Source: Kluyvera intermedia (GTDB lineage: Bacteria > Pseudomonadota > Gammaproteobacteria > Enterobacterales > Enterobacteriaceae). Taken from it: a stretch of 40,000 nucleotides of DNA. Where the stretch lies: positions 1,788,799 to 1,828,798 of the forward strand of contig NZ_CP139986.1 of assembly GCF_034424175.1 (NCBI RefSeq), given 5' to 3'. Shown here piece by piece: positions 2,546 through 35,875 of this stretch; position 1 is the first letter of the stretch, and every line of letters begins with the position of its first letter. A program made the position numbers and the translations under genes. The notes under the pieces are model-generated. The model did not search any database. It was not told the DNA's origin and saw nothing but the letters and a program-made list of their open reading frames with translations.

Positions 2546-2551
2546 CGCCAA

Positions 2552-2586: not shown

Positions 2587-2595
2587 AATAGTCGA

Positions 2596-2630: not shown

Positions 2631-2696
2631 AATCACAAACGTTGAAAATTGGCCGTCATGGTCAGGGCCAACTGTTGCCTGAAGAAAGGTAAAAAC

Positions 2697-4067: not shown

Positions 4068-4072
4068 TTATT

Positions 4073-4127: not shown

Positions 4128-4153
4128 AGGAAAACTACACAATAGGACCGACG

Positions 4154-5548: not shown

Positions 5549-5557
5549 GGAAGTGAC

Positions 5558-7039: not shown

Positions 7040-7069
7040 TTTGCTTGAAACCCTTTTGATGAGGCCATG

Positions 7070-9570: not shown

Positions 9571-9579
9571 GGAGGCTTG

Positions 9580-12277: not shown

Positions 12278-12316
12278 CAGTGCACTGGTAGCTGTTGAGC
12301 CAGGGGCGGTAGCATG
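12278..12316 (+). promoter_or_regulatory. JUMPstart element (39 bp) of the O-antigen operon leader
   Basis: CAGTGCACTGGTAGCTGTTGAGCCAGGGGCGGTAGCATG matches the remembered JUMPstart consensus (CAGTGCTCTGGTAGCTGT.AAGCCAGGGGCGGTAGCGTG) at nearly every position. It ends 85 nt upstream of the rmlB start on the same strand. Confidence 0.9.
12305..12316 (+). promoter_or_regulatory. ops (operon polarity suppressor) site, RfaH recruitment signal
   Basis: GGCGGTAGCATG fits the ops consensus GGCGGTAGnnTG, at the 3' end of JUMPstart. Confidence 0.85.
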
Positions 12317-12401
12317 CGTCAAATTAATGTCAGTGAAATTGATAGTCATTTTCCAAAACCAATAATCTCTAATTTGAATGAGTTCTAAAGCGGAAAAAAA
12401 C

Positions 12402-14386: not shown

Positions 14387-14439
14387 ACATAATGTGAGTA
14401 CCCGCAATCGGGTATTATTACGTATAAAGAGATAATAAA

Positions 14440-15318: not shown

Positions 15319-15320
15319 AA

Positions 15321-15869: not shown

Positions 15870-15874
15870 AAAAA

Positions 15875-16849: not shown

Positions 16850-16864
16850 AATAGAGGGTTAAGT

Positions 16865-17638: not shown

Positions 17639-17640
17639 AC

Positions 17641-18723: not shown

Positions 18724-18749
18724 AATAGATAAATACAGGAATTATAGCA

Positions 18750-20063: not shown

Positions 20064-20090
20064 GTAAATTTATTAAGTTTGGTGATTGTG

Positions 20091-20996
20091 ATGATGAATA
20101 GAAAAAAAATTGTAGTTGTAAGTGGAGCATCTGGCTTTATCGGTAAGCATATGCTCGAAGCTTTGCAGTTGTCAGGTATATTTGTTATCGCAATCACTCG
20201 CAATGTTTTGAGAAATGATGATTCAAACTTATCCGATGTCAAATGGTGTGATTGGGAAAAAGTTGAGTCACTATTAGCCGAATATCTAATTGATTCAACG
20301 TTTATTGCTGTTATACATTTAGCAACAGAATATGGAAGAAATTTATCATCATTAGTAGAGGTGGAGGACAGTAATGTTGTAAAGCCTCTTAAGTTACTTG
20401 ATTTGGCTGTTAAGTATAAAGCCAATGCATTCATAAATACGGATAGTTTTTTCTCTAAAAAAGAATTTTCGTATCGATATATGCAACCATATATAATAAC
20501 CAAAAAACACTTTGCTGCAATAGGGCAGTATTATAGCGAGCTTCATGATATTTCATTTGTAAATATGCGCTTAGAGCATGTTTATGGCCCCGGAGATGGT
20601 GAAGGGAAATTTATTCCGTACATATTATCACAATTAATTGATGGCCAATTAGATATAAAATGTACCTCTGGTATGCAAGTCCGAGATTTTGTTTATGTCG
20701 ATGATGTTGTCGCTGCATATTTAACTGTTTTAGAAAAAATAAATGATATTCCTTCATATGTTGAATATCAGGTAGGTACAGGCTATGGTGTTAGTCTTCA
20801 AGATTTTCTTATTCATTTGCAGCATTTAGTACCCGGTTCACGAGGAACATTTGATTTTGGTGCTTTGCCACAACGAGAAAATGAGATAATGTATTCTACT
20901 GCTAATAATAATGATTTAGTTAAGTTAGGTTGGAAGCCAAAATTCGATTTTAAACTCGGCATACGAAAGTTGCTAGAAAATACACAACTTAAGTGA
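20091..20996 (+). CDS. abe: CDP-3,6-dideoxyhexose synthase (4-keto reductase), most like CDP-abequose synthase
   Basis: 301 aa from ATG 20091 (GGTGA 5 nt upstream). The ORF-track start at 20079 is TTG. Extended SDR with VSGASGFIGKH and YIITK. Sits immediately after ddhC, where Salmonella/Yersinia carry abe or prt. Motifs HLATEYG, NMRLEHVYGPGDGE.KFIPYI and EYQVGTG resemble my memory of S. enterica RfbJ. Abequose versus paratose specificity cannot be settled by eye. Confidence 0.75.
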   Translation: MMNRKKIVVVSGASGFIGKHMLEALQLSGIFVIAITRNVLRNDDSNLSDVKWCDWEKVESLLAEYLIDSTFIAVIHLATEYGRNLSSLVEVEDSNVVKPLKLLDLAVKYKANAFINTDSFFSKKEFSYRYMQPYIITKKHFAAIGQYYSELHDISFVNMRLEHVYGPGDGEGKFIPYILSQLIDGQLDIKCTSGMQVRDFVYVDDVVAAYLTVLEKINDIPSYVEYQVGTGYGVSLQDFLIHLQHLVPGSRGTFDFGALPQRENEIMYSTANNNDLVKLGWKPKFDFKLGIRKLLENTQLK

Positions 20997-21058
20997 TTGT
21001 TGAATGATTTTTAATTATTCGTCATTAGGCAAAGTGTGTGATGTAGATTAACGGAATA

Positions 21059-22351
21059 GTGAAATTTAAATTGTTAAAAATCCCAAATCACTTAATTATC
21101 GCTGGCTCATCATGGTTATCAAAAATAGTAATCGCCGGAGTCCAGGTTGCTAGCATTTCTTATCTTTTATCAATACTAGGTGAAGAAAAGTACGCAGCAT
21201 TTAGTCTATTAACAGGATTATTAGTATGGTGTAGCGCTGTTGATTTTGGTATAGGTACAGGACTTCAAAATTATATTTCTGAATGTAGAGCTAAAAATAT
21301 TAATTATAATGGTTTTATTAAAGCTGCTTTACAGTTAAGTTTTTTTGCAATTCTATTCTTTATATTGCTTTTTTATGCTTTCTCTGGGGTTATCTCTTCG
21401 CGTTATCTTTCCTCGTTTTATACCACCTTGCAAGGTGAGACTAGAGAGATCTTTTTTATTGCTTGTTTAGTTTTCAGTTCAATAGGTATCGGCACGATTG
21501 CGTATAAGATTCTTTTTGCAGAATTAGTTGGCTGGAAAGCTAATCTGTTGAACGCATTGTCATATGTGATTGGTATGTTTGGGCTTTTATATATTTTTTA
21601 TGAAAAAATAAATATCGATATTAAATATTCATTGGTTGTAATGTACCTTCCTGTTGGTTTGATTTCCATCTGTTATTTGCTTTATCGATACATTAAATTA
21701 ATAAATGTTAAAGCAAGCAAGTTTCACTATATGGTATTGCTGCGTAGATCGTCAGGTTTCTTCATTTTTACTTTATTATCAATATTAGTGCTCCAAATGG
21801 ATTATATTGTCATCTCTCAGAGGTTAACACCGACAGATATCGTACAGTATACTGTAACAATGAAGGTTTTTGGATTGGTATTTTTCATCTATACGGCAGT
21901 GTTACAAGCATTATGGCCAATATGTGCAGAGTTAAGAATTAAACACCAATGGCAAAAGCTTAATAAAATGATTGCTATAAACATAGCGACTGGTTCGTTG
22001 TTTGTTATAGGGTGCACGATATTTATTTACACTTTTAAAGTTATATTATTTTCAGTAATAGCTAAAGATGTGAATTATCAGATGTCTATGATGTCATTTA
22101 TACTAATTGCGATTTATTTTTGTTTGCGTGTATGGTGTGATACCTATGCAATGTTATTGCAAAGCATGAATTATTTGAAGGTGCTTTGGATATTAGTGCC
22201 ATTTCAGGCAATCGTCGGGGGGGCATCTCAATGGTATCTCTCACAAATGTTTGGCATTAATGGCGTGTTGCTTGGATTAATTATATCTTTTGCTGTCACT
22301 GTTTTCTGGGGACTTCCACTGGCTTATTTTATACAAGCAAAAAAAGGTTGA
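21059..22351 (+). CDS. wzx: O-antigen flippase (Wzx)
   Basis: GTG start, 430 aa, about 12 hydrophobic segments, very AT-rich. Positioned after abe as in Salmonella dideoxyhexose clusters. Confidence 0.85.
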   Translation: MKFKLLKIPNHLIIAGSSWLSKIVIAGVQVASISYLLSILGEEKYAAFSLLTGLLVWCSAVDFGIGTGLQNYISECRAKNINYNGFIKAALQLSFFAILFFILLFYAFSGVISSRYLSSFYTTLQGETREIFFIACLVFSSIGIGTIAYKILFAELVGWKANLLNALSYVIGMFGLLYIFYEKINIDIKYSLVVMYLPVGLISICYLLYRYIKLINVKASKFHYMVLLRRSSGFFIFTLLSILVLQMDYIVISQRLTPTDIVQYTVTMKVFGLVFFIYTAVLQALWPICAELRIKHQWQKLNKMIAINIATGSLFVIGCTIFIYTFKVILFSVIAKDVNYQMSMMSFILIAIYFCLRVWCDTYAMLLQSMNYLKVLWILVPFQAIVGGASQWYLSQMFGINGVLLGLIISFAVTVFWGLPLAYFIQAKKG

Positions 22352-22355
22352 TTGT

Positions 22356-23357
22356 ATGATGGTCTCATTTTGTATACCAACTTATAATAGAAAAGAATTT
22401 TTAGAAGAATTACTTAAAAGTATTAATAATCAAAAGAAACCAAATTTTGATATAGAGGTATGCATTTCGGATAATGCATCAACTGATGGTACTGAGAGCA
22501 TGATTGAAATTTGGAGAGAGGATTTCAATTTTCCTATCGTTTACCATCGCAATAGTGAAAATCTGGGGCCTGATACAAATTTTCTTGCATCTGTATCACT
22601 TGCTACGGGTGATTACTGTTGGATATTTGGTAGTGATGATGTGCTTGCTGATGATGCATTAATTACATTAGAGTCTTATCTTCATTCTAATGCAGATATA
22701 TATCTGTGTGACAGAAGTGAAACTGGGTACGATTTGTCTGAGCTAAGAAATGCACATCGGCATTGGCTCAGTGCTTATGATGAATTATATATATTAGATA
22801 GTGATAAAGATAGAACTAATTATTTCAAAAGATGTTTATCCATCGGCGGTGTATTTAGCTATTTAAGTTCTTTAGTTGTTAAAAGGGCTAAATGGTTTGC
22901 AGTCGATTTTGATCAATCATTTATTGGGTCATCATACCCACATGTTTTTATCATGATGAATATTTTTAATAATCAAAGTTGTCGTTTACATTATTTAGCT
23001 AAGCCGCTAGTTGTTTGCCGTGGAGACAATGACAGTTTTGAAAATAAAGGTAAGGCAAATAGAGTAATAATTGATTTTTCTGGATATTTCAAATTGTCGG
23101 ATACATTATATCCTAACAATCAAATGTTACAGATGGAATTCGAAAAGATATTATTACGTGAAAGACCCTGGTTATATACATCCTTAGCTATCTCATGCTA
23201 TGGAGACCGAGAAGAAAAGGAAGTGATTTCTTCTTTTTATAAAAGGCTTGGTCATAGTGAATATTTGACCTTTTTTGTATTTAAATTCTGCTTTTTTAGC
23301 CGTGTCTTGAAAAATAATAGAATGTTAAAAACAATCCTTAAAAAATTCCTCTCATAA
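22356..23357 (+). CDS. GT2-family glycosyltransferase (candidate dideoxyhexosyl transferase, WbaV-like by position and length)
   Basis: ATG 22356 lies 8 nt after AAAAAGG and 5 nt after the wzx stop. 333 aa. Motifs CIPTYNRKEFLEELLKSINNQ, ISDNASTDGT and GSDD indicate GT-A/GT2. The ORF-track start at 22290 overlaps wzx. Confidence 0.8.
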   Translation: MMVSFCIPTYNRKEFLEELLKSINNQKKPNFDIEVCISDNASTDGTESMIEIWREDFNFPIVYHRNSENLGPDTNFLASVSLATGDYCWIFGSDDVLADDALITLESYLHSNADIYLCDRSETGYDLSELRNAHRHWLSAYDELYILDSDKDRTNYFKRCLSIGGVFSYLSSLVVKRAKWFAVDFDQSFIGSSYPHVFIMMNIFNNQSCRLHYLAKPLVVCRGDNDSFENKGKANRVIIDFSGYFKLSDTLYPNNQMLQMEFEKILLRERPWLYTSLAISCYGDREEKEVISSFYKRLGHSEYLTFFVFKFCFFSRVLKNNRMLKTILKKFLS

Positions 23358-23379
23358 TTATTTAAAACGAGATGTTTTT

Positions 23380-24564
23380 ATGGTGTTACTAGTTTGGTTT
23401 CTTGCTATAGGGTTATACTTAATTTGTGGTGTTCTCTACCTACAATTCCCACAGCTGTCTCCATTAGGAGCTCTTGGATATTCTGATACGGTTAGTGATG
23501 TTATCTACGTTGCAATTATAGGAATAGTTGGTGTTTTCTTTGGTTATTCTTCATTTTCCAAAATCAAGATTTTTGGAATCAAAGATTTTAATAATCCTGT
23601 ATTCATAAATCTTTGCTCTTTATGCTTTATGGTTTCAGCTCTATTGGTGTTCCTTCTGGGGGTTACAGCTTATGGTGGATATATTGCATTTTTGAATACA
23701 CCATATTCGCCAATCTATCAGGGAAGTGCAGATAATGAAACCAGAGATGTTCTTATTTCTTCCTCTGGATTGCTATCAATTTTTGCACTGCTGACAAGTG
23801 TCCAGGCTAAAGACATAAAAAACACAAAAGGGAATAAGTTAATTATAACCTTAGCAATGTTTATTCTCTTTTCAATATTTATTCAAGGGAGAAGGGAGAA
23901 TTTAATATTATTGATATTATGTTTTATATCATTTTATTTATTTAACTATAAAATTAGTTTTAAAAGAATTTTAAAGATCATATCTATTTGTGCAGGAATG
24001 CTTTTTATTGCAGGTTTAGGTTTGTATTTACGTGAGAGTACTTCTACATCAGGTGGTAGTGTTCTCACTGCAATTCCTTTTGCTGTTATGTATGAGACAC
24101 ATTTTTCTTTGGCAACATTAGCAAATGAAGTAAGAACTCATCTGCATGATAACGTTCCTTTTGGTGGTATATTGGAACTGTTCTCGCCTGTGTTATTTAT
24201 TATCCCAGCATTCTTTTATGGTATTTTTGGTTTTAATAAACAATCTCTGTTTGAGAATAATGAAGTGCATCTTTATGATGATAAGGGTGGGCAGTTTATT
24301 TTCACTGAAGCATTCCATTCTCTAGGTTATGTAGGTGTTTTTCTACATGGTTTTATTCTCGGCTGTATGTTAATAATCTTTTATCGCGCGGCAAAACGTA
24401 GTGGACTAATAATATATCAATTCCCAATTGTTTCATTAATATTCGTTGCAATGAGAAAAGATATGACTTATGGTGTAAAATATATATCTTTATTATTTAT
24501 TTTTATGATGCTTTTCTATTTTATCTATAAGCTTCTTCCACTTAAAAAAAATGGTCAATATTGA
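23380..24564 (+). CDS. wzy: O-antigen polymerase (Wzy) candidate
   Basis: 394 aa, about 10-11 hydrophobic segments with a larger loop late in the protein. Very AT-rich with no soluble-domain motifs. It is the only other multi-pass protein in the cluster besides Wzx. Confidence 0.7.
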   Translation: MVLLVWFLAIGLYLICGVLYLQFPQLSPLGALGYSDTVSDVIYVAIIGIVGVFFGYSSFSKIKIFGIKDFNNPVFINLCSLCFMVSALLVFLLGVTAYGGYIAFLNTPYSPIYQGSADNETRDVLISSSGLLSIFALLTSVQAKDIKNTKGNKLIITLAMFILFSIFIQGRRENLILLILCFISFYLFNYKISFKRILKIISICAGMLFIAGLGLYLRESTSTSGGSVLTAIPFAVMYETHFSLATLANEVRTHLHDNVPFGGILELFSPVLFIIPAFFYGIFGFNKQSLFENNEVHLYDDKGGQFIFTEAFHSLGYVGVFLHGFILGCMLIIFYRAAKRSGLIIYQFPIVSLIFVAMRKDMTYGVKYISLLFIFMMLFYFIYKLLPLKKNGQY

Positions 24565-24565
24565 G

Positions 24566-25636
24566 ATGCATACAGTACTTTTTGTCAGCGCTTTCCATCC
24601 CGGGGCTAAAGGTGCAATTGGGGCCGGTGAAGCTATTTGCGGTGATAATCTTAAGGTATTTTTATCACGAGGTTATGCCGTTGATGTGATAGTATTAAGT
24701 CCCCCTGGTCAACGCAAAAATGAAGAGCTTGTAGATCGGTGTACGAGTTATGCCGAAAAACATACGTCGAAAGGCAAAACGCTTTCAGGGTTACTATTTA
24801 ATTTTTTAAAGGGAAGTTTTCTGGCGCCATGGTTTTATACCAGAGTAACACCTTCATTTATTCATGAGATTCAGCATAAAATAAATAGCAATAGCTATGA
24901 TACCGTATGGCTTGATTTTCCCTCTGTTCTCGGTGTCGCAGAGCATATTCAGCATAAGAATATTCAGTATTTTGCTCACGATATCGTTTCTCAGCGCATT
25001 AGTCGTACCAAAATAAACCGTTTATTCTTTCCCTTAGTTGAGTCAGTTGAAACCAGGTTGTTGATGAAACTCACTAATATAACGACAATGTCCTTGAAGG
25101 ATAAGGAGTTGATTGAACGGTTAGGATTTCGTGGGCCCGTAGTTGTTGCTGACCTGGGTGAGCAGAAAGTTGGTCAAGTTGATAATGCGGTTGAAATTTC
25201 ATCGCTTCTACCATCTTTTTCCGGGAAATCTAATCTTGTATTTTTTGGCAATATGAAACGCTCGGAAAATCACTGGTCAATAGTTTGGTTCATTATCTTT
25301 CACTTTATAAAACTTAAAAAACAAAGAAAGGGCCTCAATTTATGGGTACTAGGTCTGCAACCGCGGCGTTCGTTGAGATTGTTGCAGAATATAATCCCCG
25401 GGCTTCATGTTGTTGGTGCAGTTGATGATCCCGTTCCGGCATTTGTCCAGGCTGATTTAAATATCGCACCTCTTTTATATGGTGCTGGGGTAAAAATTAA
25501 AGTCCTACAGATACTTGATGCTGGTGCGAAGGTCGTTGCGACGGAGGTCGGTGCCGAGGGTATCCAACCACATAAAAATCTTTATGTGGTTGATAAATCG
25601 AATATTGGAAATAAAATATTAGAACTGTTGGATTAA
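24566..25636 (+). CDS. GT-B-like glycosyltransferase (candidate mannosyltransferase)
   Basis: 356 aa from ATG 24566, which is 2 nt after the wzy stop; ATG 24551 is an alternative. C-terminal ...LNIAPLLYGAGVKIKVLQILDAGAKVVATEVGAEGI... resembles the GT4 nucleotide-sugar binding region. Acceptor and anomeric specificity unknown. Confidence 0.7.
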   Translation: MHTVLFVSAFHPGAKGAIGAGEAICGDNLKVFLSRGYAVDVIVLSPPGQRKNEELVDRCTSYAEKHTSKGKTLSGLLFNFLKGSFLAPWFYTRVTPSFIHEIQHKINSNSYDTVWLDFPSVLGVAEHIQHKNIQYFAHDIVSQRISRTKINRLFFPLVESVETRLLMKLTNITTMSLKDKELIERLGFRGPVVVADLGEQKVGQVDNAVEISSLLPSFSGKSNLVFFGNMKRSENHWSIVWFIIFHFIKLKKQRKGLNLWVLGLQPRRSLRLLQNIIPGLHVVGAVDDPVPAFVQADLNIAPLLYGAGVKIKVLQILDAGAKVVATEVGAEGIQPHKNLYVVDKSNIGNKILELLD

Positions 25637-25639
25637 AAA

Positions 25640-26584
25640 ATGTTTTCATTTACTCTAATTGTGCCAACCTTTAATGCTGGTGATAGGTGGGAAGAGTGGT
25701 TCCTGGCTTTGCAAAAACAAACCATTCAACCGTCTGAATTAATTATAATCGATTCGTCGTCCACGGATAATACGCGAGAAATCGCCAGCAAATTTGATTG
25801 CAAAATAGTAATAATCCCATCGAGTGAGTTTAATCACGGAGGCTCAAGGAACAGAGCGTTGTCTTATGCAAGTGAAAGCGAGCTAGTTATTTATCTGACA
25901 CAAGATGCAATTTTTGATAATGAAGATGCACTGGCTAAGATGACCGATGTATTTAAGGATTCGAGTGTTTCGGCCGCTTGTGGGAGGCAGATGCCTCATC
26001 ATGATGCAAATCCTCTAGCTGTTCATGCTCGAAATTTCAATTACAGTTCGACCTCACAGATTAAGAGTAAATCTGATATACAAACCTTCGGCATCAAAAC
26101 GGTATTTATGTCGAATTCTTTTGCTGCTTATCGTCGCTCCATTTTTGAAAATTTAGGCGGGTTTCCTGAGCATAACATCCTCGCGGAAGATATGTTCATG
26201 GCAGCGAAAATGATACAGGCTGGCTACAAGGTTGCTTATTGTGCTGAGGCCTCAGTAAGACATTCCCATAACTATACCCCGCTTGAAGAATTTCAGCGGT
26301 ATTTTGATACCGGTGTATTTCACGCCTGTAATCCTTGGATCCAACGTGATTTTGGTGGTGCCAGCGGCGAAGGGGCTCGTTTTGTTAAGTCAGAAATACG
26401 CTTCCTCCTCAAAAGAGCACCGCTTTGGATCCCAAGAGCATTGCTAACCACATTCGCAAAGCTTCTTGGCTATAAACTCGGAAAGCGCTGGCAATCTCTT
26501 CCATTGCCTCTTTGCCGCTCTTTAAGTATGTATAAGAGTTACTGGAATAATATTCAGAGCTCTAAATCGAAAGAGATAAGATAA
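25640..26584 (+). CDS. GT2-family rhamnosyltransferase-like protein (WbaN/RfbN-like by length and position)
   Basis: 314 aa, FTLIVPTFNAGDRWEEW...IIIDSSSTDNT...YLTQDAIF. Lies immediately upstream of manC, as does wbaN (314 aa) in Salmonella clusters. Confidence 0.75.
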   Translation: MFSFTLIVPTFNAGDRWEEWFLALQKQTIQPSELIIIDSSSTDNTREIASKFDCKIVIIPSSEFNHGGSRNRALSYASESELVIYLTQDAIFDNEDALAKMTDVFKDSSVSAACGRQMPHHDANPLAVHARNFNYSSTSQIKSKSDIQTFGIKTVFMSNSFAAYRRSIFENLGGFPEHNILAEDMFMAAKMIQAGYKVAYCAEASVRHSHNYTPLEEFQRYFDTGVFHACNPWIQRDFGGASGEGARFVKSEIRFLLKRAPLWIPRALLTTFAKLLGYKLGKRWQSLPLPLCRSLSMYKSYWNNIQSSKSKEIR

Positions 26585-28027
26585 ATGTCTGTTCTTCCAG
26601 TAATTATGGCCGGCGGTTCAGGTAGTCGCCTGTGGCCACTTTCTCGTGAGTGTCACCCTAAACAGTTTCTTAGCGTTGAAGGTAAGTTCTCAATGCTACA
26701 GAATACAATAGCTCGGGTAGCACCATTGTCAGCGGGAGACCCAGTTGTCATCTGTAATGATAAGCATCGTTTCCTGGTTGCTGAACAACTCCGTGCTATC
26801 GATAAACTCGCTAATAATATCATTCTTGAACCTGTGGGCCGAAATACTGCGCCTGCGATCGCACTTGCTGCTTTTAGTGTTCTTCAAACGGCAGAAGGGG
26901 ATGATCCTCTCTTACTGATTCTTGCTGCAGACCATGTCATTCGCGATGAAGTGGCCTTTATTCAAGCCATCACCTACGCAGAGCCCTTGGCTGAACAGGG
27001 TAAACTTGTGACCTTTGGTATTGTTCCCACGGAAGCCGAAACGGGTTATGGATACATCCGTAGAGGCGATGAAATTGGTGAGCAAGCGTATACTGTAGCC
27101 GAGTTCGTCGAGAAACCTGATTTCGATACGGCCTGTCAGTATTTTGAATCGGGAAAATATTACTGGAACAGCGGAATGTTTTTATTCCGTGCCAGCAGTT
27201 TTCTGAATGAACTTAAACAGTTATCACCTGAAATATATTACGCATGTGAAAAAGCAGTTGGGAATATTAATCCCGATCTTGATTTTATCCGAATTGATAA
27301 AGAGGCATTTAACACATGCCCGACTGATTCAATAGATTATGCAGTTATGGAACATACGCAGCATGCGGTTGTTGTCCCGATGAGTGCTGGCTGGTCTGAT
27401 GTGGGTTCCTGGTCTTCATTATGGGATATTTCTACTAAAGATCCGCAGAGAAACGTTTTACACGGCGACGTGTTTGCGCATGATAGTCAAGATAATTACA
27501 TCTATTCGGAAAATGCCTTTGTGAGCACAGTAGGGATCAATAATCTCGTTATTGTTCAGACACCAGATGCCGTATTAGTTGCAAATAAAGATTCTGTTCA
27601 AGATGTAAAAAAAATCGTAGAACATTTAAAGCAAAACAACAGAGCCGAGTGTCAACAGCATCTGGAAGTTTTCCGTCCATGGGGTAAATACAACGTCATC
27701 GATAGTGGGGAAAATTACCTGGTTAAACGGATCACCGTTAAACCAGGTGAGAAATTTGTTGCGCAGATGCACCATCATCGTGCCGAACATTGGATTGTGG
27801 TCTCTGGTATGGCTCGGGTTACCAAAGGAGAACAGACTTTTATTGTTAAGGAAAATGAGTCTACGTTTATTCCACTTGAAACTATCCATGCGTTAGAAAA
27901 TCCAGGGATCCGTGCATTAGAATTAATCGAAATCCAGTCGGGTTCTTACCTTGGAGAGGATGACATTATTCGTCTGGAGCAGCGTTCAGGATTTTTGGAG
28001 GATGGGTTTGATGAGTCCAGTAAGTAA
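26585..28027 (+). CDS. manC: Mannose-1-phosphate guanylyltransferase, O-antigen copy
   Basis: 480 aa with [16 protein letters not shown] and [13 protein letters not shown]. Roughly 60% identical by eye to the cps copy at 1109-2545. Confidence 0.95.
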
Positions 28028-29438
28028 CAGCCACGATGTGATTAGCACATCGGGTATCGCTTTTGGCACCAGTGGTGCTCGCGGTCTCGTGACCGATTTT
28101 ACGCCTGCCGTGTGCGCTGCTTTTACCGTTTCGTTTGTGGCTGTTATGCAGCAACAATTTTCATTCGAGGCGATAGCGCTGGCAATTGATAATCGTCCGA
28201 GTAGCTATGCGATGGCACAAGCTTGTGCTGCAGCGCTGAATGATAAAGGTATCAACACGGTTTTCTATGGTGTTATACCAACGCCTGCTTTAGCACTACA
28301 GTCTATGGCTGACAACATTCCGGCGATCATGGTGACCGGTAGCCACATACCTTTCGATCGCAATGGGCTAAAGTTCTATCGTCCTGATGGTGAAATTACC
28401 AAAGATGATGAAATGGCAATTCAGAATGTTGAAGCATCCTGTGACCAGCTTATCGTTAAAGAGCTGACAATCTCAACGGTTGCTGCTGAAAACTACATTT
28501 CACGTTATCTTTCATTATTCCCTGCGCCTTTTTTGAAAAATAAGCGCATTGGTATTTATGAGCACTCCAGCGCGGGACGCGATCTCTATAAGCCCTTATT
28601 CAATGCATTAGGGGCGGAAGTAGTAAGCCTGGACCGAAGCGACAGTTTTGTCCCTATAGATACCGAAGCGGTAAGTGAAGAGGACAGAGAAAAAGCGCGT
28701 AATTGGGCAAAACATTTCAAACTTGATGCCATCTTTTCTACCGACGGCGATGGTGACCGGCCATTAATTTCTGATGAGAAAGGACAGTGGTTGAGAGGGG
28801 ATATTCTTGGGTTGTTGTGTTCGCAGGCCCTGTTCGCAGATGCTGTTGCTATTCCGGTAAGCTGTAACAGTATTATTTCTTCTGGTTGTTTCTTTAAGCA
28901 TGTGGAGCTAACGAAAATCGGCTCCCCCTATGTTATCGCAGCTTTTTCTGAGTTGGCACAGTGTTATGACCGCATCGTTGGGTTCGAAGCCAATGGCGGT
29001 TTTTTATTAGGAAGTGATGTCACCATTAATGATCGTACTTTGTGTGCATTACCGACCCGCGATGCCGTATTACCTGCGATTATGCTCCTTTACAGCAGCC
29101 GTGAGAAAAATATTAGTAGTCTTGTTACGACATTGCCTCATCGTTATACCCATTCTGACCGATTACAGAATATCAGTCTTGAGAAAAGCCGCAGCTTGGT
29201 TGAGATGGGAACGGTCAATCAGCAGTTGTTGTTGAGTCGTATCGGTTTGGGAGAAGAAGTTGCGCACTCAATGGATACGACGGATGGGATAAGAATAACC
29301 CTTGGTAGCGGAAGTATTGTACATTTGCGTCCTTCAGGGAATGCGCCTGAATTGCGTTGTTATGCCGAGGCCAATTCACTAGAATTGGCGCAGGATATTG
29401 TGGATACAGTACTCACAAATGTCAGTAGTTTAAATTAA
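28011..29438 (+). CDS. manB: Phosphomannomutase, O-antigen copy (RfbK type)
   Basis: ATG 28011 lies 8 nt after GGAGGA, giving 475 aa; it overlaps the manC 3' end by 17 nt. Phosphoserine loop [13 protein letters not shown] and metal site DGDGDRP are present. Clearly a different subfamily from CpsG at 2697-4067. Confidence 0.9.
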
Positions 29439-29482
29439 GCTTTTATCTGGTTGCTAATACCCATTCATAGGGTGAGGATTAA

Positions 29483-30003
29483 ATGGATAATATTGATAAT
29501 AAGTATAATCCACAGTTATGTAAGCTTTTATTAGCCATTTCTGACTTGGTTTTTTTTAATGTGGCGTTGTGGTTATCATTAGGATGTGTCTATCTGATTT
29601 TTGACGATGTCCAGCGTTTTGTCCCCCAGGAGCAGATGGATACCCGCGTGATTTCGCATTTTATATTATCGATAGTCTGTGTGGGGTGGTTCTGGGTTCG
29701 CTTGCGACATTATACCTACCGCAAACCATTCTGGTATGAACTGAAAGAAATCTTCCGTACTATCGCCATTTTCGCCGTGTTTGATTTAGCCTTAATTGCA
29801 TTTACGAAATGGCAGTTTTCGCGTTATGTTTGGGTTTTTTGCTGGGCTTTTGCATTAATCTTGGTGCCTCTTTTCAGAGCTCTGACCAAACGTTTCCTCA
29901 ACAAAATGGGCATCTGGAAGAAAAAAACGATTATCTTGGGATCTGGGCAAAATGCCCAAGGGGCTTACTCTGCCTTGCAGAGTGAAGAGATGATGGGATT
30001 TGA
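29483..30003 (+). pseudogene. wbaP: wbaP 5' fragment (codons 1-173 plus 2 nt), interrupted by IS1
   Basis: MDNIDNKYNPQLCKLLLAISDLVFFNVALW... with four TM segments matches the N-terminus of Salmonella WbaP as I remember it. The frame runs into IS1 and stops at 30025 after 7 IS-encoded residues (EVMTPTY). Confidence 0.93.
29996..30003. repeat. IS1 target-site duplication, left copy
   Basis: GGATTTGA is identical to 30772-30779 and directly abuts the IS1 terminus. Confidence 0.9.
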
Positions 30004-30018
30004 GGTAATGACTCCAAC

Positions 30019-30522
30019 TTATTGATAGTGTTTTATGTTCAGATAATGCCCGATGACTTTGTCATGCAGCTCCACCGATTTTGAGAACGACAGCGACTTC
30101 CGTCCCAGCCGTGCCAGGTGCTGCCTCAGATTCAGGTTATGCCGCTCAATTCGCTGCGTATATCGCTTGCTGATTACGTGCAGCTTTCCCTTCAGGCGGG
30201 ATTCATACAGCGGCCAGCCATCCGTCATCCATATCACCACGTCAAAGGGTGACAGCAGTCTCATAAGACGCCCCAGCGTCGCCATAGTGCGTTCACCGAA
30301 TACGTGCGCAACAACCGTCTTCCGGAGCCTGTCATACGCGTAAAACAGCCAGCGCTGGCGCGATTTAGCCCCGACGTATCCCCACTGTTCGTCCATTTCC
30401 GCGCAGACGATGACGTCACTGCCCGGCTGTATGCGCGAGGTTACCGACTGCGGCCTGAGTTTTTTAAATGGCGGAAAATCGTGTTGAGGCCAACGCCCAT
30501 AATGCGGGCGGTTGCCCGGCAT
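30019..30522 (-). CDS. insB: IS1 InsB (expressed as the InsAB' transposase by -1 frameshift)
   Basis: 167 aa, [16 protein letters not shown]...[15 protein letters not shown] few substitutions relative to the K-12 IS1 copy I remember, so probably a different IS1 isoform. Confidence 0.95.
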
Positions 30523-30716
30523 CCAACGCCATTCATGGCCATATCAATGATTTTCTGGTGCGTACCGGGTTGAGAAGCGGTGTAAGTGAACTGCAGTTGC
30601 CATGTTTTACGGCAGTGAGAGCAGAGATAGCGCTGATGTCCGGCAGTGCTTTTGCCGTTACGCACCACCCCGTCAGTAGCTGAACAGGAGGGACAGCTGA
30701 TAGAAACAGAAGCCAC
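30441..30716 (-). CDS. insA: IS1 InsA (transposition inhibitor / N-terminal part of InsAB')
   Basis: 91 aa, [43 protein letters not shown]... with a zinc-finger-like CxxC...CxxC. Confidence 0.96.
30459..30465 (-). promoter_or_regulatory. IS1 programmed -1 ribosomal frameshift motif A6C
   Basis: The minus strand reads TTTAAAAAACTCAGG. The motif lies 18 nt upstream of the insA stop, in the insA/insB overlap, as in canonical IS1. Confidence 0.85.
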
Positions 30717-30771
30717 TGGAGCACCTCAAAAACACCATCATACACTAAATCAGTAAGTTGGCAGCATCACC

Positions 30772-30779
30772 GGATTTGA
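30772..30779. repeat. IS1 target-site duplication, right copy
   Basis: GGATTTGA is identical to 29996-30003. Confidence 0.9.
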
Positions 30780-31689
30780 TGTTGTGGCTTTTTTTGACAC
30801 ACAGACCCACGATATTGAAATAAATTCATTGCCTGTAATAAAAGATGTTGAGACCATCTGGAACCTGAGGCGCACTGGTGATGTTCATTATATTCTTGCT
30901 TTTGAATATACCGAGCTAGATAAAACACACTTCTGGTTACGTGAACTATCAAAACACAATTGCCGTTCTGTGACCGTGGTTCCTTCGTTTCGTGGTTTGC
31001 CATTATATAACACAGATATGTCCTTTATCTTTAGCCATGAGGTTATGTTGCTAAGGATTCAGAACAATCTTGCCAAACGTTCTTCTCGATTCATTAAGCG
31101 TACATTTGATATTCTTTGTTCATTAACGATTCTGTTAATCACGTCGCCGCTTATGATCTATCTTTGGTTCAAAGTCACGCGTGACGGCGGTCCGGCAATT
31201 TACGGTCATCAGCGAGTAGGGCGTCATGGTAAATTATTTCCATGCTATAAATTTCGCTCGATGGTGATGAACTCTCAGGAAGTGCTAAAAGATCTTTTGG
31301 ACAAAGATCCTGTGGCGAGGGCTGAGTGGGATAAAGATTTTAAATTGAAAAATGATCCACGCATCACATCCGTTGGCAGTTTTATTCGTAAAACAAGCCT
31401 TGATGAGTTACCGCAATTGTTCAATGTTTTGAAAGGAGAAATGAGTCTGGTCGGCCCACGACCTATCATTTCTGATGAGCTTGAGCGCTACTGTGATGAT
31501 GTTGATTATTATTTGATGGCAAAGCCAGGAATGACGGGCTTATGGCAGGTTAGCGGCCGTAATGATGTTGACTATGACACTCGCGTCTATTTCGATTCCT
31601 GGTATGTTAAAAACTGGACGCTCTGGAATGATATTGCCATTCTGTTTAAGACCGTGAAGGTGGTTTTACACCGCGATGGTGCGTATTGA
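30772..31689 (+). pseudogene. wbaP: wbaP 3' fragment (last TM plus catalytic galactose-1-P transferase domain), open in frame
   Basis: Frame continuity is ..ga|t gtt gtg gct ttt ttt gac.. = DVVAFFDTQTHDIEINSLPVIKD.... It carries the PHPT domain (GGPAIYGHQRVGRHGKLFPCYKFRSM...[21 protein letters not shown]...KPGMTGLWQVSGRND). The ORF track shows a 301-codon ORF from GTG 30784. Confidence 0.93.
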
Positions 31690-31845
31690 AAGCGATGGTA
31701 GTGACTAAAAATTATACATTGAATCGTTCTTGTATTTTGAGTGCATCAATTGCTACCTTCTTGCCTCGCCCCTGAGTTAACATGTTGTTCGTTTAAGCCC
31801 TCGGAGTCAGTTCCGCTGGGTTACCACACCTGACAGGAGTATGTA

Positions 31846-33252
31846 ATGTCCAAGCAACAGATCGGCGTTGTCGGTATGGCAGTGATGGGGCGCAATCTGG
31901 CGCTCAACATCGAGAGCCGTGGTTATACCGTCTCCATCTTTAACCGTTCCCGTGAAAAAACCGAAGAAGTTGTTGCCGAGAACCCAGGCAAGAAATTGGT
32001 GCCACATTACACGGTACAAGAATTCGTCGAGTCTCTTGAAACCCCACGTCGTATCCTGTTAATGGTGAAAGCGGGCGCGGGAACTGATGCTGCCATTGAT
32101 TCCCTGAAGCCATACCTTGATAAAGGCGACATCATTATTGATGGCGGCAATACCTTCTTCCAGGACACTATTCGCCGTAATCGTGAACTGTCTGCAGAAG
32201 GTTTTAACTTTATCGGCACCGGCGTATCTGGCGGCGAAGAAGGCGCCCTGAAGGGCCCATCTATCATGCCTGGTGGCCAGAAAGAAGCATACGAGCTGGT
32301 TGCTCCAATCCTGACTAAGATTGCTGCGGTTGCTGAAGATGGCGAACCGTGCGTGACCTATATTGGTGCGGACGGTGCGGGTCATTACGTGAAAATGGTT
32401 CACAACGGTATTGAATACGGCGATATGCAGCTGATTGCTGAAGCGTATTCTCTGCTGAAAGGCGGCCTGAACCTGTCTAATGAAGAGCTGGCTACCACTT
32501 TCACTGAGTGGAATGAAGGCGAGCTGAGCAGCTACCTGATCGACATCACCAAAGACATCTTCACCAAAAAAGATGAAGAAGGTAAATACCTGGTTGATGT
32601 GATTCTGGATGAAGCAGCGAACAAGGGTACCGGTAAGTGGACCAGCCAGAGCTCACTGGATCTGGGTGAACCGTTGTCTCTGATCACTGAATCCGTGTTT
32701 GCGCGTTACATCTCTTCTCTGAAAGAGCAGCGTGTTGCGGCATCTAAAGTGCTGTCTGGCCCACAGGCCAAACTGGCGGGCGATAAAGCTGAGTTTATCG
32801 AGAAAGTTCGTCGCGCTCTGTATCTGGGTAAAATCGTCTCCTACGCGCAAGGCTTCTCTCAGCTGCGTGCAGCGTCCGATGAGTATAACTGGGATCTGAA
32901 CTACGGCGAAATCGCGAAGATCTTCCGCGCGGGCTGCATCATTCGTGCTCAGTTCCTGCAGAAAATCACCGACGCCTATGCTGAAAATGCAGGCATCGCG
33001 AACCTGCTGCTGGCACCGTATTTCAAAAATATCGCTGATGAATATCAGCAGGCGCTACGTGATGTCGTCGCGTACGCTGTGCAGAACGGTATTCCGGTAC
33101 CAACGTTCTCTGCCGCCGTGGCTTACTACGATAGCTATCGTGCTGCGGTTCTGCCAGCGAACCTGATTCAGGCTCAGCGTGACTACTTCGGTGCGCACAC
33201 CTATAAACGTACTGATAAAGACGGTGTGTTCCACACCGAGTGGCTGGATTAA
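31846..33252 (+). CDS. gnd: 6-phosphogluconate dehydrogenase, decarboxylating
   Basis: 468 aa, [34 protein letters not shown]. Conserved leader ...ACCTGACAGGAGTATGTAATG. Confidence 0.97.
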
Positions 33253-33279
33253 TCTGAATTAGCTAACCACTAAATGCAG

Positions 33280-33306
33280 GCCCGGAGCGCTCCTTCGGGC
33301 TTTTTT
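33280..33306 (+). terminator. Rho-independent terminator after gnd
   Basis: GCCCG GAGCGCTCCTT CGGGC followed by TTTTTT. The loop contains the palindrome GGAGCGCTCC. Confidence 0.8.
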
Positions 33307-33462
33307 ATTGTCTGAAAACAGCATTCAGTCAGCTCTGATAGGCGCCGTTATACTGATTCGCGATATACTGGGGCCACATGTTGATCCGATAACACGATGT
33401 TGGGTCTCACGGCGGTAACACGCTTACCCTTAAATGTTTAACCGGAAGAAGTTACAGAGCGA

Positions 33463-34629
33463 ATGAAGATAACTATCTCAGGAACAGGTTACGTTGGCCT
33501 CTCGAACGGCATTTTGATCGCCCAACATCACGAAGTTGTGGCGCTGGATATCATTCAGGCCAAAGTCGACATGCTGAATCAGAAAATATCACCGATCGTC
33601 GACAAAGAGATTGAAGAGTATCTGGCGACGAAAACGCTGAATTTCCGTGCGACCACAGATAAGCATGACGCATACCGCGATGCCGATTTTGTGATCATCG
33701 CGACGCCAACCGACTACGATCCGAAAACAAATTACTTCAATACGTCGAGCGTTGAATCGGTTATTCGCGATGTTATCGAGATTAACCCGCATGCGACGAT
33801 GGTCATAAAATCTACCATCCCGGTCGGTTTCACTAAAGAGATTAAAGAAAGATTGGGTATCGACAACATCTTTTTCTCACCCGAATTTCTGCGTGAAGGT
33901 CGCGCCCTGTATGACAACTTGCACCCGTCACGTATTGTGATTGGTGAGCGCTCCGAACGTGCTGAGCGTTTCGCTTCGTTATTGCAGGAAGGGGCTCGGA
34001 AGAAAGATATCCCGACTCTCTTTACCGATTCTACTGAAGCGGAAGCCATCAAACTTTTCGCCAATACTTATCTGGCATTACGTGTGGCTTACTTTAACGA
34101 GTTAGACAGTTATGCGGAAAGCCTGGGTCTGGACTCTCGTCAGATTATTGAAGGGGTTTGTTTGGATCCGCGCATTGGTAACCATTACAACAATCCGTCG
34201 TTTGGTTATGGTGGCTACTGCTTGCCGAAAGATACCAAGCAACTTCTTGCTAACTACGCTGCGGTGCCAAATAACATTATCGGCGCGATTGTCGACGCTA
34301 ACCGTACACGTAAAGATTTTATTGCTGACTCTATCCTTGCTCGCCAGCCTAAAGTGGTCGGCATCTATCGCCTGGTGATGAAGTCGGGGTCTGATAACTT
34401 CCGCGCGTCCTCTATTCAGGGGATCATGAAGCGTATTAAGGCTAAAGGCATTCCGGTGATCATCTATGAACCAGCGATGAAAGAAGATGAATTTTTCAAC
34501 TCACGCGTAGTACGTAGCCTGGATGCTTTTAAGCAGGAAGCTGATGTGATTGTCTCCAACAGAATGGCGGAAGAGTTGGCGGATGTAGCAGACAAAGTTT
34601 ATACCCGCGATCTCTTTGGTAATGATTAG
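33463..34629 (+). CDS. ugd: UDP-glucose 6-dehydrogenase
   Basis: 388 aa, [30 protein letters not shown].... Catalytic region [14 protein letters not shown]. Confidence 0.96.
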
Positions 34630-34641
34630 ATTTTTTGACTG

Positions 34642-34671
34642 ATGCAATGCCCCAGCTAGGGGGCATTGCAT
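34642..34671 (+). terminator. 12-bp stem hairpin after ugd (terminator-like, weak U tract)
   Basis: ATGCAATGCCCC (34642-34653) pairs with GGGGCATTGCAT (34660-34671) around a 6-nt loop. Followed by GATTTATC. Confidence 0.55.
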
Positions 34672-34891
34672 GATTTATCATCACAATTGATTATTTTTCT
34701 AAAAAACGCCGTATTTTTTGCCTTATCAATAAATGAAGTTACACTTGATGGAAATGATAATCATCAGCAGCCAAAAATAGAGTCGTTATCTCTGATAACT
34801 CTGTCTTTTTTCTGGGTTAATTCTGATAGTAATTATTAGAATAATGTTTAGAATGGCAGGCTTTTATACCTTTATTTCAGTTAGGGTTTAT

Positions 34892-35875
34892 ATGACGCAA
34901 GCAAGTAACAGCGGAGCAGTGAAGGATCGTTCCGAACCAGAGCAAATCGATTTAATTGATTTAGTAGTGCAGCTTTGGCGTGGCAAAGTAACTATTATAG
35001 CCAGTGTCATGATTATCCTTATCCTGGCTGTGGCCTATCTGTTTGTAGCCAAAGAAAAATGGACTTCAACGGCCATTGTGACGCAACCGGATGCTGCACA
35101 AATAGCTACATACAGTATCGCTTTAAAAGTGCTCTATCCAGACGGCTCGGTCAAAATGGAGGAAGTCCAAAATCGAGTTGTTAGTCGCTTTTCCTCGGCG
35201 CTTTCGGCTCTCTCGAATGAGCTAGATAATCAAGATAAACCCGAAAAACTGACGGTAGATCAGGCTATTAAAGGACATGAATTACCTATTCAGATTACCT
35301 ATGTGGGCGGTAGTGCCCAAGAAGCACAGAAAACGTTGGCGCAGTATATCCAGAAGATTGATGAACAGGTCGCAGATGAACTGCATCTCGATTTGAACGA
35401 TAGCATCAAACAGCAAATCCTGACGCTGTCCTCCTCTTTAGAAACCCAGGAAACCGTTGCTGAAGAGCAACGTACTCTGCGCCTGAAACAAATTAAAGAA
35501 GCGTTGAAGTACGCGCAAGAAGCCAATATCGTCAAGCCACAGCAACAGCAGCCGCAGGATGTGACGCAAGATACTCTGTTCCTGCTGGGCAGCGAAGGGC
35601 TGAGCGCGATGATTAAAAATGAAGCGACTCGTCCGCTGGTCTTCCCGGGTAATTACTACCAGACAAAAAACAACCTGCTGGATATTGAGCGTATTAAAGT
35701 TGACCCGAAAACCATCCATGCCTATCGCTATGTGATGAAACCGGATCTTCCTATCCGCCGTGATAGTCCGAAACGCGCCATTGTGCTGGTGCTAGCCGTT
35801 CTATTAGGTGGCATGATTGGCTCCGGCATCGTACTTGGACGCAACGCACTCCGCGAGTACCGTAACCGCCACTAG
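34892..35875 (+). CDS. wzzB: O-antigen chain-length determinant (PCP-1 family)
   Basis: ATG 34892 (MTQASNSGAVKDRSEPEQIDLIDLVVQLWRGK...) gives 327 aa, like E. coli/Salmonella WzzB. N- and C-terminal TM segments are present, with the C-terminal motif PIRRDSPKRAIVLVLAVLLGGMIGSGIVLGRNALR. The ORF-track start at 34844 is unsupported. Confidence 0.93.
   Translation: MTQASNSGAVKDRSEPEQIDLIDLVVQLWRGKVTIIASVMIILILAVAYLFVAKEKWTSTAIVTQPDAAQIATYSIALKVLYPDGSVKMEEVQNRVVSRFSSALSALSNELDNQDKPEKLTVDQAIKGHELPIQITYVGGSAQEAQKTLAQYIQKIDEQVADELHLDLNDSIKQQILTLSSSLETQETVAEEQRTLRLKQIKEALKYAQEANIVKPQQQQPQDVTQDTLFLLGSEGLSAMIKNEATRPLVFPGNYYQTKNNLLDIERIKVDPKTIHAYRYVMKPDLPIRRDSPKRAIVLVLAVLLGGMIGSGIVLGRNALREYRNRH

What the first reader, a model, noticed from the sequence alone, without database searches (positions are those of the whole stretch)
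29483..31689. The O-unit initiating transferase wbaP is cleanly split by a complete IS1 with an intact 8-bp target duplication
Seen in sequence: a 768-bp IS1 (30004-30771) has canonical 23-bp inverted repeats, intact insA and insB, and the A6C frameshift site. It is flanked by the direct repeat GGATTTGA (29996-30003 and 30772-30779). Deleting the IS plus one repeat copy (30004-30779) joins 521 nt and 910 nt into one 1431-nt ORF of 476 codons plus stop, with junction ...SEEMMGF-DVVAFFDTQ.... That is the length I recall for Salmonella WbaP. Every other gene in the roughly 19-kb cluster looks intact, so the insertion appears recent rather than part of general decay. By analogy with the IS5 insertion in wbbL that makes E. 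coli K-12 rough, this strain is predicted to be rough or O-antigen-deficient. That would change serotyping, serum resistance and phage receptor availability. Precise excision would restore the gene.
Basis: partly seen in the sequence, partly recalled or inferred. Interest (0 to 1): 0.7.

Follow-up and report, generated by a model that had tools for sequence, protein, structure and literature searches.

The report
IS1 knocks out wbaP in Kluyvera
A common jumping gene (IS1) has recently landed in the gene that starts O-antigen synthesis in one laboratory stock of the Kluyvera intermedia type strain, probably leaving that stock without O-antigen; this is a real but textbook kind of mutation.

Summary
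A 768-bp IS1 (30004-30771, IS1B-like, all parts intact) sits in wbaP between two copies of the 8-bp repeat GGATTTGA. Removing the IS and one repeat gives a 476-codon gene.

New here:
- The organism is Kluyvera intermedia, not Salmonella or E. coli.
- The restored protein is exactly WP_062778303.1.
- The window matches strain HAMBI_1299 (GCA_034424175.1), which is the HAMBI stock of type strain ATCC 33110.
- Two other assemblies of that type strain, BCYS01 (ATCC 33110/NBRC 102594) and LR134138.1 (NCTC12125), have the empty site. They show no substitutions against the window over about 21 kb.
- At least eight independent short-read runs show one or both IS junctions, so this is not an assembly artefact.

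The insertion therefore arose after the strain was deposited, much like wbbL::IS5 in E. coli K-12.

Loss of O-antigen is the likely result but was not tested. The break is at codon 174, upstream of the C-terminal domain (F258-Y476) that is known to be sufficient for WbaP activity. No in-frame start that keeps that domain has a ribosome-binding site, so residual activity is unlikely but not excluded.

The finding is ordinary biology. Its practical value is for users of the HAMBI synthetic community.

The parts
29483..30003 (+). wbaP 5' fragment: codons 1-173 plus 2 nt of codon 174. It encodes the four N-terminal transmembrane helices and the start of the central domain (PF13727). As interrupted, the ORF reads on into IS1 to a stop at 30023-30025 and gives 180 aa ending ...[11 protein letters not shown].
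   Evidence: The exact 180-aa product is encoded on contigs from independent short-read runs. Domain positions come from the gap-free 89% alignment to Salmonella WbaP and from PMC10942596.
29996..30003 (.). Left copy of the 8-bp target-site duplication GGATTTGA.
   Evidence: The site is single-copy in the empty-site alleles; the BLAST segments overlap by exactly 8 nt.
30004..30771 (-). Complete IS1 (IS1B-like), 768 bp, with its genes antisense to wbaP. IRR lies at 30004-30026 and IRL at 30749-30771.
   Evidence: It is 100% identical to an IS1B-like copy on NZ_CP016764.1 and 99.9% identical to E. coli IS1B copies.
30441..30716 (-). insA (91 aa, GTG start). The A6C programmed -1 frameshift motif lies at 30459-30465.
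   Evidence: The InsAB' fusion matches NF033558 over its full length at 243.8 bits.
30019..30522 (-). insB' reading frame (167-aa ORF), which forms the C-terminal part of the InsAB' transposase.
30772..30779 (.). Right copy of the 8-bp target-site duplication GGATTTGA.
30780..31689 (+). wbaP 3' fragment: the last base of codon 174 through the stop codon. It holds the rest of the central domain, the membrane hairpin (TMH-V) and the whole catalytic PF02397 domain, including F258-Y476. It is cut off from the wbaP start codon. The first in-frame start is GTG at 30784, with no Shine-Dalgarno sequence.
   Evidence: Contigs from independent runs begin 29-30 nt inside IRL and carry this fragment.
12305..12316 (+). 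Exact ops element GGCGGTAGCATG upstream of rmlB. It marks the RfaH-dependent long operon whose last gene is wbaP. This is context, not part of the lesion.

Best explanation

The event happened in the lineage of the HAMBI 1299 stock of the Kluyvera intermedia type strain (ATCC 33110T), after that stock separated from the ATCC/NBRC and NCTC stocks.

The gene is now split in two. One part is a 180-aa membrane stub. The other is a 3' fragment with no promoter or ribosome-binding site of its own, and it carries the catalytic domain. Without Und-PP-Gal no O-unit can be built, so the cells should make lipid A-core only (rough LPS). The rest of the pathway is intact but idle. Precise excision would restore the wild-type sequence exactly.

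- **Shown:** the element, the junctions, the identity of the restored allele, the empty site in sister stocks, and independent read support.
- **Inferred:** the loss of function and the rough phenotype; that the event occurred during culture-collection or laboratory propagation; and that losing the initiating enzyme is the route to O-antigen loss that cells tolerate, because no dead-end Und-PP intermediates build up.
For: **Anatomy**
- The anatomy of the IS, the repeats and the restored ORF is confirmed.
- The restored ORF is WbaP: NF011751 at 1047.7 bits against a cut-off of 907, and 89% gap-free identity to Salmonella WbaP.

**Intact allele and empty site**
- The restored protein is exactly WP_062778303.1 of K. 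intermedia.
- BCYS01000029.1 matches the window at 100.000% over 16,624 + 4,569 bp, with a single GGATTTGA. BCYS01 is ATCC 33110T (PMC12812546).
- NCTC12125 (LR134138.1) has the same empty site. It shows 0 substitutions and only four 1-nt homopolymer indels.

**Source of the window**
- The IS-bearing allele is in SRR27033682, which is K. intermedia HAMBI_1299 (GCA_034424175.1, 4,732,808-bp chromosome, PacBio HiFi plus MiSeq) (PMC11237487).
- The window's own proteins lie on a contig of exactly that length.
- HAMBI 1299 is listed as ATCC 33110T (supplement of PMC6102323).

**Independent read support**
- The left junction is seen in SRR27033682 and in ERR14823738/46. The right junction is seen in ERR14823735/38/42/47.
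- These contigs stop 29-30 nt inside the IS. That is what a multi-copy repeat produces; a mixed population would break the contig at the junction itself.

**Likely loss of function**
- No in-frame start upstream of F258 has a Shine-Dalgarno sequence.
- No outward sigma-70-like promoter is found at the IRL junction.

**Precedent**
- IS1-like insertions in wbaP and wcaJ are the commonest spontaneous route to capsule loss in Klebsiella (PMC7590720).
Against: - No phenotype data exist for this stock.
- The 3' fragment keeps the complete C-terminal domain. That domain alone gives WbaP or WcaJ activity when expressed from a plasmid promoter (PMC4361858).
- The operon carries an ops element. RfaH-modified RNA polymerase might therefore read through IS1 and allow weak internal initiation.
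- The time and place of the insertion (HAMBI, an earlier holder, or a user laboratory) cannot be fixed from sequence.
- The provenance of the ERR148237xx runs is unknown to me.
Confidence: 0.85

Rival explanations
1. Leaky lesion. Operon transcription reads through IS1, helped by RfaH and ops, and translation restarts at an internal codon such as GTG176, ATG254 or ATG263. A stand-alone C-terminal transferase is made, so the strain still produces some O-antigen, probably less and with a different chain-length distribution.
For: - Residues 175-476 are intact in frame.
- WbaP-CT (F258-Y476) and WcaJ-CT are sufficient for activity. Changes to the central loop alter O-antigen chain length (PMC4361858).
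- An exact ops element lies at 12305-12316.
Against: - None of the in-frame starts at or before residue 254 has a Shine-Dalgarno-like sequence. The only GAGG lies 3 nt before ATG263, which is too close.
- No promoter-like site reads out of IRL.
- IS1 is classically strongly polar in both orientations (established knowledge).
- Published C-terminal constructs were expressed from strong plasmid promoters.
Confidence: 0.1
2. Assembly artefact: the IS1 was wrongly placed in wbaP by a repeat-induced chimera in the hybrid assembly.
For: IS1 is multi-copy, and contigs break inside it. Such repeats are a classic source of misjoins.
Against: - A perfect 8-bp target duplication flanks a complete element.
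- Both junctions are recovered in de novo short-read contigs from several independent runs, each extending 29-30 nt into the IS.
- The source assembly used PacBio HiFi reads of about 11 kb mean length, which span a 768-bp repeat.
Confidence: 0.02
3. The insertion is a natural polymorphism of wild K. intermedia populations, an old rough lineage, rather than a post-deposit stock mutation.
For: The IS-bearing allele is seen in at least eight sequencing runs.
Against: - HAMBI 1299 is catalogued as ATCC 33110T. Two other stocks of that strain have the empty site with 0 substitutions over about 21 kb.
- Other K. intermedia strains with the identical WbaP protein are uninterrupted.
- The IS-positive runs are SRR27033682, the HAMBI strain itself, and a consecutive ERR148237xx block with fragmentary coverage. 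That fits metagenomes or resequencing that include this strain (inference).
Confidence: 0.03

Closest known systems
E. coli K-12 wbbL::IS5 (the rfb-50 mutation)
   Same: An IS inserted in a single O-antigen gene of an otherwise intact cluster, in a long-propagated laboratory strain. The strain becomes rough, and supplying the intact gene restores the O-antigen.
   Different: Here the element is IS1, not IS5. The target is the initiating phosphoglycosyl transferase wbaP, not the rhamnosyltransferase wbbL. The host is Kluyvera intermedia. The phenotype has not been tested.
IS1-like insertions in wbaP or wcaJ of Klebsiella pneumoniae capsule loci (PMC7590720)
   Same: The same IS family hits the same enzyme family, the initiating Und-P hexose-1-P transferase. 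These are spontaneous events that abolish a surface polysaccharide during culture. In that study 56% of non-mucoid variants were IS insertions, several of them IS1-like in wbaP.
   Different: Those events affect the capsule, not the O-antigen, and their phenotype was demonstrated. Here the evidence is sequence only, and the locus is a galF-gnd O-antigen cluster.
Salmonella enterica WbaP (RfbP), the prototype large monotopic phosphoglycosyl transferase
   Same: Both are 476 aa, with 89% identity and no gaps. The equivalog model NF011751 is passed. The domain order is the same (four-helix bundle, PF13727 domain, PF02397 catalytic domain), and so is the position as last gene before gnd.
   Different: The gene is from a different genus and is interrupted at codon 174, inside the PF13727 regulatory and dimerisation domain (residues 146-272 in PMC10942596).

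Membership tests
IS1 family insertion sequence (IS1B-like isoform) | Length of about 768 bp with imperfect terminal inverted repeats of about 23 bp beginning GGT | tested here: met
   The element is 768 bp and its repeats match at 18 of 23 positions. The end pattern is found only at these two sites, against 0 expected.
IS1 family insertion sequence (IS1B-like isoform) | Two overlapping frames, insA and insB', joined by a -1 frameshift at A6C to give the InsAB' transposase | tested here: met
   Both frames are open, and A6C lies at 30459-30465. The fused 232-aa protein matches NF033558 at model positions 1-199 of 199, with 243.8 bits against a cut-off of 100.
IS1 family insertion sequence (IS1B-like isoform) | Short direct target-site duplication (8-9 bp for IS1; own knowledge of ISfinder family tables) | tested here: met
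   The 8-bp repeat GGATTTGA is on both sides. It is single-copy in the empty-site alleles.
IS1 family insertion sequence (IS1B-like isoform) | Near-identity to reference IS1 copies | tested here: met
   It is 100% identical to a copy annotated 'IS1-like element IS1B family transposase' on NZ_CP016764.1, and 99.9% identical to many E. coli copies.
IS1 family insertion sequence (IS1B-like isoform) | Transposition activity of this copy | not testable with these tools
   Activity is implied by the recent insertion and the intact parts, but was not measured.
[quoted passage not shown] | The restored protein passes the curated equivalog model | tested here: met
   NF011751 scores 1047.7 bits against a cut-off of 907, covering 1-476 of 476. 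TIGR03022 (WbaP) scores 619.7 against 403. The glucose-specific WcaJ models fall below their cut-offs.
[quoted passage not shown] | Domain architecture: N-terminal transmembrane bundle, PF13727 domain, PF02397 catalytic domain | tested here: met
   PF13727 and PF02397 hits are recorded for the identical intact protein. The alignment to Salmonella WbaP has no gaps.
[quoted passage not shown] | Genomic context: last gene of a galF-gnd O-antigen operon that makes a Gal-initiated unit | tested here: met
   The order is galF, ops, rmlBDAC, ddhDABC, SDR, wzx, GT2, wzy, GT4, GT2, manC, manB, wbaP, gnd, ugd, wzzB.
[quoted passage not shown] | UDP-Gal specificity and enzymatic activity | not testable with these tools
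   This is inferred only from 89% identity to the characterised Salmonella enzyme.
Rough (O-antigen-less) laboratory variant of the K-12 wbbL::IS5 type | A single IS lesion in an otherwise intact cluster, absent from sister stocks of the same strain | tested here: met
   The window is 100% identical to BCYS01 over 13380-30003 and 30772-35340 apart from the IS, and all other genes are called intact. NCTC12125 also has the empty site.
Rough (O-antigen-less) laboratory variant of the K-12 wbbL::IS5 type | Loss of the O-antigen ladder, restored by complementation | not testable with these tools
   This needs LPS gels of HAMBI 1299 against ATCC 33110, with and without wbaP on a plasmid.

The most novel reading that the evidence does not exclude
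The split may not be a null. RfaH-dependent read-through and internal initiation could yield a free-standing catalytic domain, with the N-terminal bundle and a truncated regulatory domain made separately. HAMBI 1299 would then be a natural 'domain-split' large phosphoglycosyl transferase, making O-antigen at an altered level or chain length and without UMP feedback.

A more modest and more likely reading is that this is a stock-specific domestication mutation. In that case a standard member of a widely used synthetic community would lack O-antigen, unlike the type strain it is catalogued as. That could affect its interactions with phages, protist grazers and neighbouring species in published eco-evolutionary experiments.
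Probability: 0.1. Interest if true: 0.4.

Novelty: new member of a known kind. Interest (0 to 1): 0.2.

Why it matters
IS disruption of an O-antigen or capsule initiating transferase is textbook biology, so nothing conceptual is at stake. The practical points are these:

1. The HAMBI 1299 stock of the K. intermedia type strain is genetically not equivalent to ATCC 33110/NBRC 102594 or NCTC 12125 at a locus that controls the whole cell surface.
2. HAMBI 1299 is a member of a synthetic community used for ecology and evolution experiments. A rough surface would change phage receptors, grazing resistance, aggregation and antibiotic permeability.
3. Before 2024 that community was analysed against the ATCC 33110 reference GCF_001598315, which has the intact gene.
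4. The case also shows that the strain carries an active IS1.

Tried and rejected
- **E. coli origin.** No E. coli complete genome carries this wbaP. Only the IS matches by megablast, and the best wbaP hit in the distant search is 75%. The ugd-his flank is only 81% identical to E. coli. An E. coli origin is rejected.
- **Scan of GTDB representative genomes.** The scan with the restored protein gave nothing above 83% identity and no Kluyvera or Salmonella hit, so it did not identify the source. That scan was the only one allowed.
- **NCTC12125 as the source.** I first suspected the NCTC12125 complete genome. This is rejected: LR134138.1 has the empty site. Its apparent wbaP split (40 + 451 aa) comes from one extra T in a TT run, one of four homopolymer indels.
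- **Outward or hybrid promoter at IRL.** I looked for one that could drive the 3' fragment. TTGGCA in IRL has no acceptable -10 at a 16-18 nt spacing, and nothing is reported by the scan.
- **Terminator-like hairpin.** One spans the IRL/wbaP junction at 30761-30785. The total of such hits is not above the count in shuffles, so I did not interpret it.
- **Papers not found or not helpful.** Wang, Liu and Reeves 1996 (PMC177985) is not held. The main text of Cairns 2018 lacks the strain table, but its supplement has it.
- **Left undone.** I ran no further search on whether the 301-aa SDR is an abequose or a paratose synthase.
Full report
**1. The observation**

- **The IS.** Reading 29400-31800 and checking it by script confirms a 768-bp element at 30004-30771. 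Its ends are GGTAATGACTCCAACTTATTGAT and, reverse-complemented, GGTGATGCTGCCAACTTACTGAT. They match at 18 of 23 positions. An IS1-end pattern finds only these two sites in the 40-kb window, against none expected.
- **Its genes.** On the minus strand, insA (30441-30716, 91 aa) and insB' (30019-30522, 167 aa) are open. The A6C slippery motif is at 30459-30465. The conceptual -1 frameshift product (232 aa) covers the IS1 transposase model NF033558 end to end, with 243.8 bits against a cut-off of 100.
- **Its identity.** The element is 100% identical to an IS1B-like copy on a Citrobacter freundii plasmid and 99.9% identical to many E. coli copies.
- **The target duplication.** GGATTTGA flanks the element at 29996-30003 and 30772-30779. 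The duplication is 8 bp, which is within the 8-9 bp known for IS1 (own knowledge).
- **The restored gene.** Removing 30004-30779 gives a 1431-nt ORF of 476 codons. It passes the WbaP equivalog NF011751 (1047.7 bits against a cut-off of 907) and fails the glucose-specific WcaJ models.
- **The truncated product.** As interrupted, the 5' ORF runs into the IS and stops at 30025, giving 180 aa.

**2. Whose genome this is**

The window is not E. coli. Only the IS matches E. coli genomes at high identity, the ugd-his flank is 81% identical, and the best E. coli wbaP is 75% identical.

Exact-sequence look-ups settled the source. The window's Wzy, two glycosyltransferases and Gnd are Kluyvera intermedia proteins. 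They lie on contigs of 4,739,056 and 4,732,808 bp. The restored 476-aa WbaP is exactly WP_062778303.1 of K. intermedia.

The truncated 180-aa product is found only in short-read assemblies, among them SRR27033682. That run belongs to K. intermedia HAMBI_1299 (GCA_034424175.1), assembled from PacBio HiFi plus MiSeq with a 4,732,808-bp chromosome (PMC11237487). The SRR27033682 contig is 100% identical to the window over 5,550 bp and ends 29 nt inside IS1. The window therefore almost certainly comes from the HAMBI_1299 genome.

HAMBI 1299 is catalogued as ATCC 33110T, isolated from surface water in France (supplement of PMC6102323).

**3. The uninterrupted allele exists in the same strain**

| Assembly | Strain or stock | Match to the window | Site |
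|---|---|---|---|
| BCYS01000029.1 (GCA_001598315.1) | ATCC 33110T / NBRC 102594T (PMC12812546) | 100.000% over 16,624 bp (window 13380-30003) and 4,569 bp (30772-35340); also over 10,521 + 9,229 bp out to window position 40000 | Empty |
| LR134138.1 | NCTC12125 (GCA_900635475.1, PMC10493288) | No substitutions; four 1-nt insertions in homopolymer runs | Empty |

- In BCYS01 the two aligned segments overlap by exactly 8 nt of the query, which is the single GGATTTGA. Its wbaP is called as an intact 476-aa gene with PF13727 and PF02397.
- The four indels in NCTC12125 split rmlC, ddhB, manC and wbaP in that assembly's gene calls. I read them as PacBio errors.
- Three further runs from other K. 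intermedia strains carry the identical WbaP protein uninterrupted.

So the insertion is specific to the HAMBI stock lineage and is younger than any point substitution in about 21 kb.

**4. It is not an artefact**

- **Left junction.** Contigs from SRR27033682, ERR14823738 and ERR14823746 carry it.
- **Right junction.** Contigs from ERR14823735, 38, 42 and 47 start 29-30 nt inside IRL and carry the 301-aa 3' ORF followed by gnd and ugd.
- **What the contig ends mean.** Contigs that stop one k-mer inside the IS, rather than at the junction, are what a multi-copy repeat produces. A mixture of IS-plus and IS-minus cells would break them at the junction (inference).
- **Assembly method.** A perfect target duplication and HiFi reads of about 11 kb make a chimera very unlikely.

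**5. Context and mechanism**

- **The operon.** The surrounding genes are galF; an exact ops element (GGCGGTAGCATG, 12305-12316); rmlBDAC; ddhDABC; one 301-aa short-chain dehydrogenase; wzx; a 333-aa GT2; wzy; a GT4; a 314-aa GT2; manC; manB; wbaP; then gnd, ugd and wzzB. wbaP is the last gene of an RfaH-type long operon.
- **Numbering.** The restored protein aligns without gaps at 89% identity to Salmonella WbaP, so published residue numbers transfer directly.
- **Where the break falls.** The break after residue 173 lies in the cytosolic PF13727 domain (residues 146-272), which mediates dimerisation and UMP regulation (PMC10942596). It is upstream of the membrane hairpin and the catalytic domain.
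- **Predicted effect.** The catalytic part is separated from its promoter-proximal start codon by 776 bp of antisense IS1. No Und-PP-Gal should be made, so no O-unit is built and the LPS should be rough.
- **Why this target.** Inactivating the initiating enzyme is the route to O-antigen loss that cells tolerate, because it traps no undecaprenyl phosphate in dead-end intermediates (established knowledge). IS1-like hits in wbaP or wcaJ also dominate spontaneous capsule loss in Klebsiella (PMC7590720).

**6. The caveat**

The C-terminal domains of WbaP (F258-Y476) and WcaJ are sufficient for activity when expressed on their own (PMC4361858). The 3' fragment here encodes residues 175-476 intact.

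I therefore listed all in-frame starts: GTG176, TTG191, GTG238, GTG240, TTG247 and ATG254 lie before F258, and none has a Shine-Dalgarno-like sequence. The only GAGG lies 3 nt before ATG263. No sigma-70-like promoter reads out of IRL. The insA promoter in IRL points away from the fragment (own knowledge). IS1 is classically polar, although RfaH could lessen that.

I rate residual activity at about 10%.

**7. Comparison with what is known, and novelty**

The closest parallel is wbbL::IS5 in E. coli K-12: a single IS lesion acquired during laboratory life in an otherwise intact cluster.

- The element is an ordinary IS1B-like copy.
- The gene is an ordinary WbaP.
- This is a new instance of a known kind of event.

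It matters mainly because HAMBI 1299 is a standard member of a synthetic community and had earlier been analysed against the ATCC 33110 reference.

**8. Verdict**

- **Observation:** confirmed.
- **Interpretation:** supported. The organism is now identified, the event is dated relative to sister stocks, and the phenotype remains untested.
- **Interest:** low, 0.2.

Noticed in passing
window 12378-31689: [quoted passage not shown] That is the layout described for Salmonella groups B2 and D3 (PMC3715488). Its Wzy is 75% identical to a 2,785-member Salmonella Wzy cluster, and its WbaP is 89% identical to Salmonella WbaP. The intact strain may make a Salmonella O4/O27-like or O9-like O-antigen and cross-react with Salmonella antisera. 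I did not resolve whether the single 301-aa SDR (20079-20996) is an abequose or a paratose synthase.
   Followed up: partly
L083, L086, L087 against window 24611-30003: Other K. intermedia strains (SRR31440795, SRR29077489, SRR17907840) have a different 5' O-unit module (glf, a WbsX-type GT, a hexapeptide acetyltransferase and a different polymerase). They still share the 3' module from inside the GT4 gene through manC, manB and wbaP at 99.7% identity, and the WbaP protein is identical. This looks like a mosaic O-antigen cluster with a recombination breakpoint near window 24611.
   Followed up: partly
L089 (LR134138.1, NCTC12125) at window 15438, 17808, 27607, 29573: The NCTC12125 assembly differs from the window only by four 1-nt insertions in homopolymer runs. 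In its gene calls they split rmlC, ddhB, manC and wbaP (40 + 451 aa). These are most likely PacBio consensus errors, but they could mislead an automated pseudogene comparison.
   Followed up: yes
window 12305-12316: An exact ops element (GGCGGTAGCATG) lies 62 nt upstream of rmlB, implying RfaH-dependent antitermination of the O-antigen operon. This bears on how polar the IS1 insertion is.
   Followed up: partly
window 30761-30785: A terminator-like hairpin (9 pairs) followed by a T7 run is formed across the IRL/wbaP junction. The total number of terminator-like hits in the region is not above the count in shuffles.
   Followed up: no
L090 (ERR14823746) at window 22529; L082 (ERR14823738) at window 28797; L093 (ERR14823738) at window 24802: Some short-read contigs carry single-base homopolymer indels, and the one at 22529 splits the wbaV-like GT2 into 66 + 284 aa. 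These are probably low-coverage assembly errors. The provenance of the ERR148237xx runs is unknown to me; their fragmentary coverage suggests metagenomes that contain the HAMBI strain.
   Followed up: partly
window 32-10989: The upstream third of the window holds large plus-strand ORFs ending just before galF. Their layout suggests the distal part of a colanic-acid-type cluster, which would include a second initiating transferase (WcaJ). This is inferred only from ORF sizes and positions. I did not run family searches on these ORFs.
   Followed up: no
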